A stretch of 64,000 nt of DNA from the human T2T-CHM13v2.0 reference genome, Homo sapiens. The position numbers and the translations under genes are program-made. The first letter of the stretch is position 1. Each line of letters opens with the position of its first letter. Positions 16,971 to 19,329 of this stretch are shown in pieces. Under the pieces are notes generated by a model. The model was not told where the DNA came from, did no database searches, and saw nothing but the letters and a program-made list of their open reading frames with translations. The DNA lies in the NCBI RefSeq assembly GCF_009914755.1, contig NC_060930.1, one strand, 5' to 3'.

Positions 16971-17278
16971 TGAAATAAATATATCCGTTGGAGCAAAAAA
17001 GTTGAGTCATTTCTCCCCATTAAAATTATTTCTAGTGTTGTCTCTAATAATTAAGTACTATCACCAATGACCAAAAATGTCACTTTTAGAAAATTCATGT
17101 ATATAACACAAATTTTAATGTTAATAATTTCATTGAGAAGTGCCTTGGCACCTAATTGATGACCTCATGGATTGAAAGATTATGAAAGTGTGAAAGTGAA
17201 AAAGCAAGTATTATATTTTTAGAAAAATAATTTTTGCATTCCCTGTAACCAAAACATTTTTCTTTTTCTTTTTTTTTT

Positions 17279-17769
17279 AAAGTAAGTAAAGGAGGTGTTT
17301 TATTATTTGTTAAATAGCTTCACAAATAATTCATTCTGATTATTCTGTTTTAATTGGCCAAGATACTTCTTACAATTGGGCTAATTCTGTTTCTCTTTTC
17401 TCTTGCTTTGAAGCAGTACAAAACAAGCAGACACCCATGGCCTTTCCATGTCTAAGATGAGTCTAATCTAAATATCCATGAATTATACTTAAAATTATGA
17501 CTGACTAACATGTGCTGAGAATCCTATAACAAAATGATAGCTTTCTTAATATTTGCTTTGAATCAACATTGTTACTAGCTCCTTTGCTAATTGGTTGAGT
17601 GCTTTCTAGATTTAAAAAAACATTAAGTAAGGTGGGATTTTGCATAGATATGCATACACACACAAATACACACACCAACACCCCAAGTTAGACTAGACAG
17701 AAAACAACCCCTTAGACAGTCCCTCAAAAGGCTGGAGCATTAGATGTGCATGCTTCAATCTTCTTTGTG
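17279..17769 (-). other. L1 3'-transduced flanking DNA
   Basis: Lies between two poly(A) tracts (minus strand) inside the TSDs; AATAAA on the minus strand (tttatt 17300-17305) about 21 nt from the distal poly(A). Confidence 0.85.
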
Positions 17770-18594
17770 TTTTTTTTTTTTTTTTTAGATTTTCTTTGAT
17801 TTTTTTTTCTTTTTTTATTATTATTATACTTTAAGTTTTAGGATACATGTGCACAATGCGCAGGTTAGTTACATATGTATACATGTGCCATGCTGGTGTG
17901 CTGCACCCATTAACTCCTCATTTAGCATTAGGTATATCTCCTAATGCTATCCCTCCCCCCTCCCCCCACCCCACAACAGTCCCCAGAGTGTGATGTTCCC
18001 TTCCTGTGTCCATGTGTTCTCATTGTTCAATTCCCATCTGTGAGTGAGAACATGTGGTGTTTGGTTTTTTGTCCTTGTGATAGTTTACTGAGAATGATGA
18101 TAGTGCCACAATAAACATACGTGTGCATGTGTCTTTATAGAAGCATGATTTATAGTCCTTTGGGTATATACCCAGTAATGGGATGGCTGGGTCAAATGGT
18201 ATTTCTAGTTCTAGATCCCTGAGGAATGGCCACACTGACTTCCACAATGGTTGAACTAGTTTACAGTCCCAACAACAATGTAAAAGTGTTCCTATTTCTC
18301 CACATCCTCTCCAGCACCTGTTGTTTCCTGACTTTTTAATGATCCCCATTCTAACTGGTGTGAGATGGTATCTCATTGTGGTTTTGATTTGCATTTCTCT
18401 GATGGCCAGTGATGATGAGCATTTTTTCATGTGTCTTTTGGCTGCATAAATGTCTTCTTTTGAGAAGTGTCCATTCATATCCTTTGCCCACTTTTTGATG
18501 GGGTTGTTTGTTTTTTTCTTGTAAATTTGTTTGAGTTCATTGTAGATTCTGGATATTAGCCCTTTGTCAGATGAGTAGGTTGAGAAAATTTTCT

Positions 18595-19171
18595 ATCCAC
18601 CATGATCAAGTGGGCTTCATCCCTGGGATGCAAGGCTGGTTCAATATACGCAAATCAATAAATGTAATCCAGCATATAAACAGAACCAAAGACAAAAACT
18701 ACATGATTATCTCAATAGATGCAGAAAAGGCCTTTGACAAAATTCAACAACCCTTCATGCTAAAAACTCTCAATAAATTAGGTATTGATGGGACATATCT
18801 CAAAATAATAAGAGCTATCTATGACAAACCCACAGCCAATATCATACTGAATGGGCAAAAACTGGAAGCATTCCCTTTGAAAACTGGCACAAGACAGGGA
18901 TGCCCTCTCTCACCACTCCTACTCAACATAGTGTTGGAAGTTCTGGCCAGGGAAATTAGGCAGGAGAAGGAAATAAACGGTATTCAAGTAGGAAAAGAGG
19001 AAGTCAAATTGTCCCTGTTTGCAGACGACATGATTGTATATCTAGAGAACCCCATTGTCTCAGCCCAAAATCTCCTTAAGCTGATAAGCAACTTCAGCAA
19101 AGTCTCAGGATACAAAATCAATGTGCAAAAATCACAAGCATTCTTATACACCAATAACAGACAAACAGAGA
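18595..19171 (+). pseudogene. L1 ORF2 reverse-transcriptase fragment (inverted segment)
   Basis: Translation contains [31 protein letters not shown] and FADDMIVY. Confidence 0.95.
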
Positions 19172-19329
19172 CCCTGTAACCAAAGCATTTTTCAAGCTGA
19201 AAGTTGTGTTAAAAATATATTACATTTTCATGACACATAGCAGAGTGAACACTAAAGCAAATACAAAGTACGAATAGGAGATAATGTGAACTCTCAAAGG
19301 ACAAAAATAAATAAATAGATAGATAACTA

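What the first reader, a model, noticed from the sequence alone, without database searches (positions are those of the whole stretch)
17241..19193. L1 insertion carrying a ~0.5-kb 3' transduction, revealed by displaced TSDs
Seen: the L1's own tail (~17770-17820) has no adjacent TSD. The 22-mer after the L1 (19172-19193, followed by AA, giving an L1 endonuclease-type TTTTC/AA site) recurs with one mismatch at 17241-17262, next to a second poly(T). A minus-strand AATAAA lies ~21 nt from that tail. Established: read-through of the weak L1 poly(A) signal produces this layout. Inference: 17279-17769 looks unique but was copied from the flank of a source L1 elsewhere, so it tags the donor locus. Repeat masking alone would not show this.
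Basis: partly seen in the sequence, partly recalled or inferred. Interest (0 to 1): 0.8.

Follow-up and report, generated by a model that had tools for sequence, protein, structure and literature searches.

The report
L1 insertion with chrX-derived 3' transduction
A 1.9-kb L1 retrotransposon insertion on chromosome 6 dragged along about 490 bases of DNA from beside its still-identifiable full-length parent element on the X chromosome; this is a clean but ordinary example of a well-known process.

Summary
The observation and the interpretation both hold. The 22-mer at 17241-17262 recurs at 19172-19193 (21 of 22 bases), and it brackets a 1909-bp insert.

Read on the minus strand, the insert contains, in order:
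- an inverted L1 reverse-transcriptase segment;
- the L1 3' end;
- an interrupted A-tail;
- 491 bp of non-repeat DNA, with AATAAA 20 nt before its end;
- a 16-nt poly(A).

A whole-genome search with the 491 bp found three places: the window itself, chrX ~90.085 Mb (98%) and chrY ~4.552 Mb (97%). On chrX the sequence lies directly 3' of a full-length L1 (about 6.15 kb plus tail) that has its own 12-bp target-site duplications. The same odd interrupted tail is present there. The chr6 copy also carries the source's 3' duplication. It departs from chrX exactly where its poly(A) starts.

The chrY copy belongs to a collinear X-Y block, probably the X-transposed region. Site patterns indicate it arose after the chr6 insertion.

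The L1 is 5'-inverted (twin priming, about 0.86 kb lost). It has a 149-bp internal deletion. The "own tail" was copied from the source, not newly added.

The L1PA3 label and the outgroup empty site could not be tested. The mechanism is textbook, so interest is low.

The parts
17241..17262 (.). Target-site duplication, the copy next to the terminal poly(A). In L1 sense orientation this is the 3' duplication.
   Evidence: 21 of 22 bases identical to 19172-19193. Only 2 sites in the window, and 0 of 100 shuffles reach 2.
17263..17278 (-). Poly(A) tail of the read-through transcript: 16 nt with one interruption. It is untemplated, because chrX continues with TTCATTC... at this point.
   Evidence: Sequence. 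Alignments to chrX and chrY show the homology ends here. The boundary is ambiguous by 1 base.
17279..17755 (-). 3'-transduced non-repeat DNA, copied from the 3' flank of the chrX source L1. It carries AATAAA (17299-17304, seen as TTTATT on the plus strand) 20 nt before the cleavage site.
   Evidence: A genome search with 17279-17769 gave 3 of 3 hits: the window itself, chrX 90085420-90085906 (98%) and chrY 4552097-4552578 (97%). Alignments. No Rfam match at E<=1. No ORF longer than 60 aa.
17756..17767 (-). Carried-along copy of the source L1's own 3' target-site duplication. On chrX it reads AAAAGAAGACTG; 10 of 12 bases are kept here.
   Evidence: The 12-mer occurs at both ends of the chrX L1 (L004 1682-1693 and 7920-7931) and likewise on chrY. 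Alignment.
17768..17820 (-). Templated copy of the source L1's genomic A-tail, including the interruption ...AAAAAAATCAAAGAAAATCT... It is 26 nt shorter than on chrX.
   Evidence: The same interrupted tail is present on chr6, chrX and chrY. The exact 20-mer lies at an L1 tail in only 4 of its 10 genome hits.
17821..18100 (-). L1 3' end: the end of ORF2 plus the 3' UTR. It corresponds to source coordinates L004 7559-7847.
   Evidence: blastn against the chrX locus: 17278-18101 matches L004 8408-7559 at 94.4%, including the tail gap.
18101..18594 (-). L1 ORF2 3' portion, matching L004 6915-7409. The 18100/18101 junction marks a 149-bp deletion relative to chrX, chrY and chr11 (L004 7410-7558), with 2 nt (AT) of microhomology.
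   Evidence: blastn at 96.8% over 495 bp. Junction sequences. The 149 bp are present on chrX, chrY and chr11.
18595..19171 (+). Inverted L1 ORF2 reverse-transcriptase segment, matching L004 5483 to about 6056. It abuts the other target-site duplication. About 0.86 kb of L1 between this segment and the direct segment is missing. This is the twin-priming layout.
   Evidence: blastn in plus orientation at 97.2% over 570 bp. Pfam RVT_1, E=4e-33, on the translation of 18535-19176 plus strand. Junctions.
19172..19193 (.). Target-site duplication, the copy at the L1 5' (inverted) end. It is followed by AAGCTG.

Best explanation
Bases 17263-19171 are one L1 retrotransposition event, with L1 sense on the minus strand, that carried a 3' transduction.

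**Source.** The source was the full-length L1 now at chrX 90,079,193 to about 90,085,418 of this assembly (plus strand).

**Transcript.** A transcript of that element ran through the L1's own poly(A) signal. It continued through the element's genomic A-tail, its 3' target-site duplication and about 480 bp of chrX flank. It was then cleaved and polyadenylated 20 nt after a flanking AATAAA. On chrX a T/G-rich stretch (TTTTGTTG) follows about 20 nt further on.

**Insertion.** L1 endonuclease nicked the chr6 plus strand at CATTTTTC/AAGCTG. Reverse transcription was primed on the new poly(A). A second priming on the other strand inside ORF2 (twin priming) gave an inverted 577-bp RT segment, with about 0.86 kb of L1 lost. 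Staggered cleavage left 22-bp duplications.

**Shown:** the anatomy, the chrX and chrY paralogs, the shared tail and source duplication, and the exact divergence point.

**Inferred:**
- the RNA intermediate and the order of priming events;
- the date, roughly twice the age of the X-to-Y duplication, so about 6-12 Myr;
- that the chrY copy arose later, as part of the X-transposed block.
For: 1. **Second locus.** 17279-17769 hits 3 of 3 places in the genome: the window itself, chrX (98%, 488 bp) and chrY (97%).
2. **Contiguous layout on chrX.** On chrX the sequence directly follows L1 3' end, then A-tail. chr6 reproduces the whole junction, including the interruption TCAAAGAAAATCT.
3. **The chrX L1 is full-length.**
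   - It starts GGGGGGAGGAGCCAAGATGG right after the 12-bp duplication AAAAGAAGACTG, which recurs after its tail.
   - It carries ORF1 domains (Transposase_22, E=1.5e-58), endonuclease and RVT_1 (E=1.5e-43).
4. **The source duplication travelled too.** chr6 carries it at 17756-17767.
5. **Exact divergence point.** Homology ends at ...ACTTACTTTA. After that chr6 has poly(A), while chrX and chrY continue with TTCATTCATTT. AATAAA lies 20 nt upstream in all three.
6. **Duplications enclose everything.** The 22-bp duplications bracket L1 plus cargo, not L1 alone.
7. **Direction of copying.** The chr6 copy is the truncated and inverted one, so copying went from chrX to chr6.
8. **Timing.**
   - Four-way site patterns, with a chr11 relative as outgroup, give 6 (+3) sites where chr6 = chr11 and chrX = chrY differ from them.
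   - Only 1 (+1) site shows the conflicting chr6 = chrY pattern, and 0 (+2) show chr6 = chrX.
   - So changes fell on the chrX lineage after the chr6 copy was made and before chrX and chrY separated.
Against: - **No outgroup genome.** The empty site is inferred, not seen.
- **Target site.** It has C, not T, at position -1 of the consensus TTTT/AA.
- **Weak microhomology.**
   - At the inversion junction it is only 1 nt.
   - At the L1/duplication junction it is about 2 nt with a terminal mismatch.
   - These junctions therefore add little support for twin priming beyond the layout itself.
- **Source no longer competent.** The chrX element today has both ORFs interrupted, so its past competence is inferred.
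- **Uneven divergence.**
   - chr6 against chrX shows about 5-7 differences in about 470-490 bp of cargo, but 2-3% in the L1 parts.
   - The date is therefore loose.
- **Relay not excluded.** A lost intermediate copy carrying the same cargo cannot be ruled out.
Confidence: 0.96

Rival explanations
1. Relay. The chr6 copy was made not from the chrX element itself but from a full-length daughter (or the parent) of it that carried the same tail and cargo and has since been lost or is absent from this assembly.
For: - A chr11 L1 fragment shares the interrupted tail, so this lineage had more than one offspring or sibling.
- The chr6 tail lacks 26 nt that chrX, chrY and chr11 all have.
Against: - Only 3 of 3 genome hits carry the cargo, and none is an intermediate.
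- The chrX flank continues past the cleavage site. The chrX L1 has matching duplications at both ends, one of which is the first 12 nt of the cargo. So chrX is where the cargo originated.
- The 26-nt gap lies in an A-rich tract that is prone to slippage.
Confidence: 0.03
2. The layout is a coincidence. 17279-17769 is native chr6 DNA, or a DNA-level (segmental or gene-conversion) copy of chrX, next to an unrelated L1 insertion. The 22-mer repeat is then chance or belongs to something else.
For: None beyond the fact that NCBI masking treats 17279-17756 as non-repeat (hub note).
Against: - The L1 end, tail, source duplication and flank form one contiguous block identical in order to chrX.
- The block ends in an untemplated poly(A) 20 nt after AATAAA.
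- The 22-mer pair is not expected by chance: 0 of 100 shuffles.
- The chr6 flanks immediately outside the duplications have no chrX homology.
Confidence: 0.005
3. Template-switch chimera. L1 reverse transcriptase jumped from an unrelated polyadenylated chrX transcript onto L1 RNA during insertion, as in U6/L1 or mRNA/L1 chimeric retrocopies.
For: Such chimeras also show two A-rich tracts inside one pair of duplications (recalled knowledge).
Against: The join between cargo and L1 reproduces the genomic junction on chrX exactly, including tail interruptions and the source duplication. A jump between separate RNAs would not do that.
Confidence: 0.005

Closest known systems
L1 3' transduction (read-through of the L1 poly(A) signal; Moran 1999, Goodier 2000, Pickeral 2000, Szak 2003)
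   Same: The layout is L1, tail, unique flank, second poly(A), all inside one pair of target-site duplications. There is a poly(A) signal 20 nt before the second tail. The flank traces to the 3' side of a full-length source L1. PMC9311842 describes the mechanism and calls it common in the human genome (passages read). The abstract of PMC13009371 gives about 25% of insertions carrying a transduction, in colorectal cancer (search listing).
   Different: - Most catalogued cases involve human-specific or polymorphic L1Hs. This one is fixed in the reference and old: about 2.5% diverged from its source.
- It is combined with a 5' inversion.
- The primary papers were not held. I therefore could not check whether this locus is already listed. 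Those papers are cited from the reference list of PMC9311842 and from recall.
Twin-priming 5' inversion of L1 (Ostertag and Kazazian 2001, recalled; described in PMC3024322, passages read)
   Same: The 5' part of the insert is in the opposite orientation to the 3' part. The sequence between them is lost. Both parts lie inside one pair of duplications.
   Different: Microhomology at the junctions is minimal, at 1-2 nt. The mechanism is inferred from the layout only.
Xq21.3/Yp11.2 X-transposed region
   Same: The chrX source locus and its chrY copy are collinear at 97.4% over 8.9 kb, L1 and both flanks included. PMC3752934 describes a human-specific Xq21.3-to-Yp11.2 duplication about 6 Myr ago (passages read).
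   Different: That chrX ~90.08 Mb and chrY ~4.55 Mb fall inside the published region rests on recalled coordinates and was not tested. X-Y divergence inside the L1 is 3.0%, well above the 0.8-0.9% in the flanks.
Processed retrocopy or orphan transduction
   Same: An L1-mediated copy of non-L1 DNA, ending in poly(A) and flanked by duplications.
   Different: Here 1.35 kb of L1 and the source's tail are still attached, so it is not an orphan. The cargo shows no ORF longer than 60 aa and no Rfam match at E<=1.

Membership tests
L1 3' transduction | L1 sequence lies at the 5' side of the extra DNA. | tested here: met
   RVT_1, E=4e-33, on window 18535-19176. 17821-19171 aligns at 94-97% to a full-length L1 carrying ORF1, EN and RT domains.
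L1 3' transduction | Target-site duplications enclose L1 plus the extra DNA, not L1 alone. | tested here: met
   The 22-bp pair sits at 17241-17262 and 19172-19193. No copy of the 22-mer lies next to the internal tail.
L1 3' transduction | The extra DNA ends in an untemplated poly(A) 10-30 nt after a poly(A) signal. | tested here: met
   AATAAA is at 17304-17299 (minus strand). The tail starts 20 nt later. chrX and chrY have no A-run at that point.
L1 3' transduction | The extra DNA has a paralog immediately 3' of a (full-length) source L1. | tested here: met
   chrX 90085420-90085906 lies directly after the tail of an L1 of about 6.15 kb with 12-bp duplications.
L1 3' transduction | Endonuclease-type target (TTTT/AA-like). 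| tested here: met
   The site is CATTTTTC/AAGCTG, a pyrimidine/purine junction with C at -1. The consensus is recalled.
L1 3' transduction | Empty pre-insertion site in an outgroup species. | not testable with these tools
   No other primate genome is held. The chr6 flanks next to the duplications are single-copy in this genome, so no in-genome empty-site paralog exists.
Twin-priming inversion | An inverted 5' segment abuts one duplication, a direct 3' segment abuts the tail, and L1 sequence is lost between them. | tested here: met
   Plus-strand 18594-19163 matches L004 5483-6052. Minus-strand 18100-18594 matches L004 7409-6915. About 0.86 kb is absent.
Twin-priming inversion | Microhomology at the priming and joining junctions. 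| tested here: inconclusive
   1 nt at the inversion junction. About 2 nt with a terminal mismatch at the L1/duplication junction.
   No Dfam or RepeatMasker library is available. Divergence from the source (2.5% overall, about 1.1-1.5% in the cargo) fits a hominid-age L1PA element but does not name the subfamily.
X-transposed region (for the chrY copy) | Long collinear X-Y homology at high identity. | tested here: met
   97.4% over 8948 bp. The flanks differ by 0.8-0.9%. Only 10 kb was examined.
X-transposed region (for the chrY copy) | Position within the published Xq21.3/Yp11.2 block. | not tested
   The coordinates of the block are recalled. PMC3752934 names bands and genes, not T2T coordinates.

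The most novel reading that the evidence does not exclude
The chrX element belonged to, or was, a hominid-era progenitor whose interrupted A-tail was inherited by its offspring and works as a lineage barcode. The tail is shared by the chr6 copy and by a 1.06-kb truncated L1 on chr11 that carries no chrX flank. If transcripts of this lineage often ended inside or just past the genomic tail, such tail tags could trace parent-offspring links among old, fixed L1PA copies that carry no recognisable flank transduction.
Probability: 0.35. Interest if true: 0.3.

Novelty: new member of a known kind. Interest (0 to 1): 0.2.

Why it matters
- **A resolved parent-offspring pair.** It gives one fully resolved pair for an old, fixed L1: a chrX source, a chr6 copy and a later chrY duplicate of the source.
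- **Annotation.** About 490 bp on chr6 that repeat masking leaves as "unique" are in fact a retro-copied paralog of Xq DNA. This matters for read mapping, paralog-aware annotation and dating.
- **A rough internal clock.** With the chr11 relative as outgroup, the pair places the insertion before the X-to-Y duplication.
- **No new mechanism.** Nothing here changes what is known about L1 biology.

Tried and rejected
- **In-genome empty-site paralog.**
   - Both chr6 flanks were searched genome-wide.
   - Only an old dispersed repeat (about 16786-16980, 72-82% identity) and an (AAATA)n-like tract (about 19300-19350) match elsewhere.
   - Nothing spans the insertion point.
- **Functional cargo:** no Rfam match at E<=1 in 17200-17850. 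No stop-to-stop ORF above 60 aa overlapping 17263-17769.
- **Siblings carrying the same cargo:** none, since 3 of 3 hits are accounted for.
- **Further tail-tag relatives.**
   - Exact 20-mer: 10 hits (reversed-pattern control: 1). 4 of 10 lie at an L1 tail: chr6, chr11, chrX, chrY. The other 6 lie in unrelated A-rich contexts.
   - One mismatch allowed: 86 hits in all (control: 16).
   - Of the 76 new ones I examined the 20 that were fetched, and 0 of 20 lie at an L1 3' end. The other 56 were not examined.
- **chr11 element as parent of chrX:** rejected, because it is 5'-truncated at about 1.06 kb.
- **chrY as the source:** rejected. Site patterns place the chr6 copy before the chrX/chrY separation. 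chr6 also shares none of chrY's private changes in the cargo.
- **Primary papers:** Szak 2003, Pickeral 2000 and Hoyt 2022 are not held. Whether this locus is already catalogued is unknown.
- **Paper search for X-transposed region, Xq21.3, Yp11.2 and LINE-1 together:** 0 papers.
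Full report
**Observation**

The plus strand reads CCCTGTAACCAAAACATTTTTC at 17241-17262 and CCCTGTAACCAAAGCATTTTTC at 19172-19193, a 21-of-22 match. A degenerate pattern with up to 3 mismatches finds only these two sites in the window, and 0 of 100 shuffles gave two matches.

The first copy is followed by TTTTTCTTTTTTTTTT (17263-17278). The second is followed by AAGCTG. The pre-insertion site was therefore ...CATTTTTC/AAGCTG..., a pyrimidine-run/purine-run junction of the L1-endonuclease type with C at -1 (the consensus is recalled). 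TTTATT, which is AATAAA on the minus strand, sits at 17299-17304, 20 nt from the T-run.

**Anatomy of the insert (17263-19171, 1909 bp), read on the minus strand**

The insert was mapped by blastn against the chrX locus fetched as L004 and by alignments.

1. 19171-18595 is an inverted piece of L1 ORF2. It is sense on the plus strand, matches L004 5483 to about 6056, and hits Pfam RVT_1 at E=4e-33.
2. 18594-18101 is ORF2 3' sequence in direct orientation (L004 6915-7409).
3. At 18101/18100 there is a 149-bp deletion relative to chrX, chrY and chr11, with AT microhomology.
4. 18100-17821 is the L1 3' end (L004 7559-7847).
5. 17820-17768 is an A-tail interrupted by TCAAAGAAAATCT.
6. 17767-17756 is AAAGAAGATTG-type sequence.
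7. 17755-17279 is non-repeat DNA.
8. 17278-17263 is poly(A).

About 0.86 kb of L1 between the inverted and direct segments is missing. An inverted 5' piece abutting one duplication, a direct 3' piece and a loss in between form the twin-priming layout (described in PMC3024322, passages read). Junction microhomology is only 1-2 nt.

**Where the extra DNA came from**

A search of the whole 3.1-Gb assembly with 17279-17769 gave exactly three places:
- the window itself;
- chrX 90085420-90085906 (98% over 488 bp);
- chrY 4552097-4552578 (97%).

On chrX the matching DNA lies directly after the tail of an L1 on the plus strand. That L1 begins GGGGGGAGGAGCCAAGATGG... immediately after AAAAGAAGACTG (L004 1682-1693). 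The same 12-mer recurs right after its A-tail (L004 7920-7931). The same holds on chrY. The element is therefore full-length: about 6.15 kb plus a tail of about 72 nt, with its own target-site duplications.

Pfam finds L1 ORF1 domains (Transposase_22, E=1.5e-58), the endonuclease and RVT_1 (E=1.5e-43) in it. Both reading frames are interrupted today.

**Why this is a transduction from that element**

- The chr6 copy reproduces the chrX arrangement continuously: L1 3' end, then the same interrupted tail, then the source's 3' duplication, then flank.
- Homology stops exactly at ...ACTTACTTTA. chr6 goes into poly(A), while chrX and chrY continue TTCATTCATTTAACAAATTTTGTTG.... AATAAA lies 20 nt upstream in all three, and on chrX a T/G-rich stretch lies about 20 nt downstream.
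- The 22-bp chr6 duplications enclose the whole block.
- The chr6 copy is the truncated and inverted one, so copying ran from chrX to chr6.
- The tail at 17768-17820 is thus a templated copy of the source's genomic tail, not a newly added one. This explains why no duplication sits beside it.
- At the L1 poly(A) hexamer, chr6 and a chr11 relative read AATAAA, while chrX and chrY differ by one base. The source therefore probably had the canonical hexamer when it was read through.

**The chrY copy and timing**

chrX and chrY are collinear at 97.4% over 8948 bp around the element. This fits the human-specific Xq21.3-to-Yp11.2 duplication, dated to "around 6 million years ago" in PMC3752934 (passages read). 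An older figure of 3-4 Myr is recalled. That these coordinates lie in that block is also recalled, not tested.

The three-way comparison covered 1794 aligned columns:

| Measure | Value |
|---|---|
| chr6-private differences | 36 |
| chrX-private differences | 9 |
| chrY-private differences | 27 |
| d(chr6, chrX), all sites | 2.5% |
| d(chr6, chrX), without CpG | 2.15% |
| Cargo only (463 columns): chr6 / chrX / chrY private | 5 / 0 / 2 |

A fourth sequence, the chr11 relative, polarises the changes over about 850 shared columns:

| Site pattern | Sites (+ three-state sites) |
|---|---|
| chr11-private | 25 |
| chrY-private | 13 |
| chr6-private | 12 |
| chrX-private | 8 (+1) |
| chr6 = chr11, differing from chrX = chrY | 6 (+3) |
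| chr6 = chrY (conflicting) | 1 (+1) |
| chr6 = chrX (conflicting) | 0 (+2) |

The 6-9 changes shared by chrX and chrY fell on the chrX lineage after the chr6 copy was made and before chrX and chrY separated. So the chr6 insertion predates the X-to-Y duplication by roughly a factor of two. That gives about 6-12 Myr (inference, wide error). This is compatible with a hominid-age L1PA element. The label L1PA3 could not be tested because no consensus library was available.

**Rivals**

- *Relay through a lost intermediate.* Not excluded, but not needed. No third cargo-bearing locus exists, and chrX is where the cargo is native.
- *Coincidental adjacency, a DNA-level duplication, or an RT template-switch chimera.* All are contradicted by the contiguous chrX junction, the untemplated poly(A) and the enclosing duplications.

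**What could not be done**

- No other primate genome is held, so the empty site is inferred.
- The chr6 flanks next to the duplications are single-copy in this genome.
- The primary transduction catalogues were not held, so I cannot say whether this locus is already listed.

**Comparison with what is known**

This is a standard L1 3' transduction combined with a twin-priming inversion. PMC9311842 (passages read) states the mechanism: a weak L1 signal is skipped and transcription ends at a downstream signal. It calls the process common in the human genome. The abstract of PMC13009371 (search listing) gives about 25% of insertions with a transduction in tumours. PMC10606232 (passages read) notes that transductions are used to link sources and offspring. 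The instance here is older than most catalogued cases, and its source lies in a block later copied to the Y. The kind is not new.

**Seen in passing**

- *chr11 relative.*
   - A 1.06-kb truncated L1 on chr11 (about 4,224,179-4,225,241) shares the interrupted tail but runs into its own flank.
   - Of 10 exact genome hits to a 20-mer from the tail, 4 lie at an L1 tail: chr6, chr11, chrX and chrY.
   - Of the 20 one-mismatch hits examined (out of 76), none does.
- *X-Y divergence inside the L1.*
   - It is 3.0% inside the L1 (187 of 6151) against 0.8-0.9% in the flanks (22 of 2701).
   - It is evenly spread, and only about a quarter of the differences fall at CpG sites.
   - This is unexplained. 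Ectopic conversion among L1 copies is one candidate.

**Verdict**

The mechanism is textbook, so interest is low (0.2).

Noticed in passing
L027 7180-8242 (G000:C11 about 4,224,179-4,225,241, plus strand): A 5'-truncated L1 of about 1.06 kb, 95.2% identical to the chrX source. It shares the source's interrupted A-tail (...AAAAAAATCAAAGAAAATCT, then A-run, then CCAAAAAA...) and then continues into its own chr11 flank. It is either a second offspring of the chrX element or a sibling from a common parent. I used it as an outgroup to polarise changes.
   Followed up: partly
L004 1694-7847 vs L005 (chrX vs chrY source locus): X-Y divergence is 3.0% inside the L1 (187 of 6151) but 0.8-0.9% in both flanks (22 of 2701). 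It steps up and down at the L1 boundaries, and only about a quarter of the differences are at CpG sites. With chr6 as outgroup, chrY carries about three times more private changes than chrX. This is unexplained; ectopic L1-L1 gene conversion is a candidate.
   Followed up: partly
window 18100/18101: A 149-bp internal deletion in the chr6 L1 relative to the chrX, chrY and chr11 copies, with 2 nt (AT) of microhomology at the junction. It could be a post-insertion deletion or a jump by the reverse transcriptase.
   Followed up: partly
window 17768-17786: The templated A-tail is 26 nt shorter on chr6 than on chrX and chrY. It lacks a CCAAAAAACAAAAC-type stretch that chr11 also has, so the loss is on the chr6 side (slippage during or after copying).
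   Followed up: no
window about 16786-16980 and about 19300-19350: The left flank holds an old dispersed repeat that NCBI did not mask, with matches at 72-82% on many chromosomes. The right flank holds an (AAATA)n-like simple repeat with an inverted self-match at 19330-19466.
   Followed up: no
L004 9634-9814 and L004 1-593: On chrX, a second L1 3'-end fragment in minus orientation lies about 1.2 kb downstream of the cargo. A stretch upstream of the source L1 aligns to chrY at only 93% with 8 gaps, and shifted by about 300 bp.
   Followed up: no
window 17816-17821 vs L004 about 7840-7848: At the L1's own poly(A) hexamer, chr6 and chr11 read AATAAA while chrX and chrY differ by one base. The source therefore probably had the canonical hexamer when the read-through transcript was made.
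   Followed up: partly
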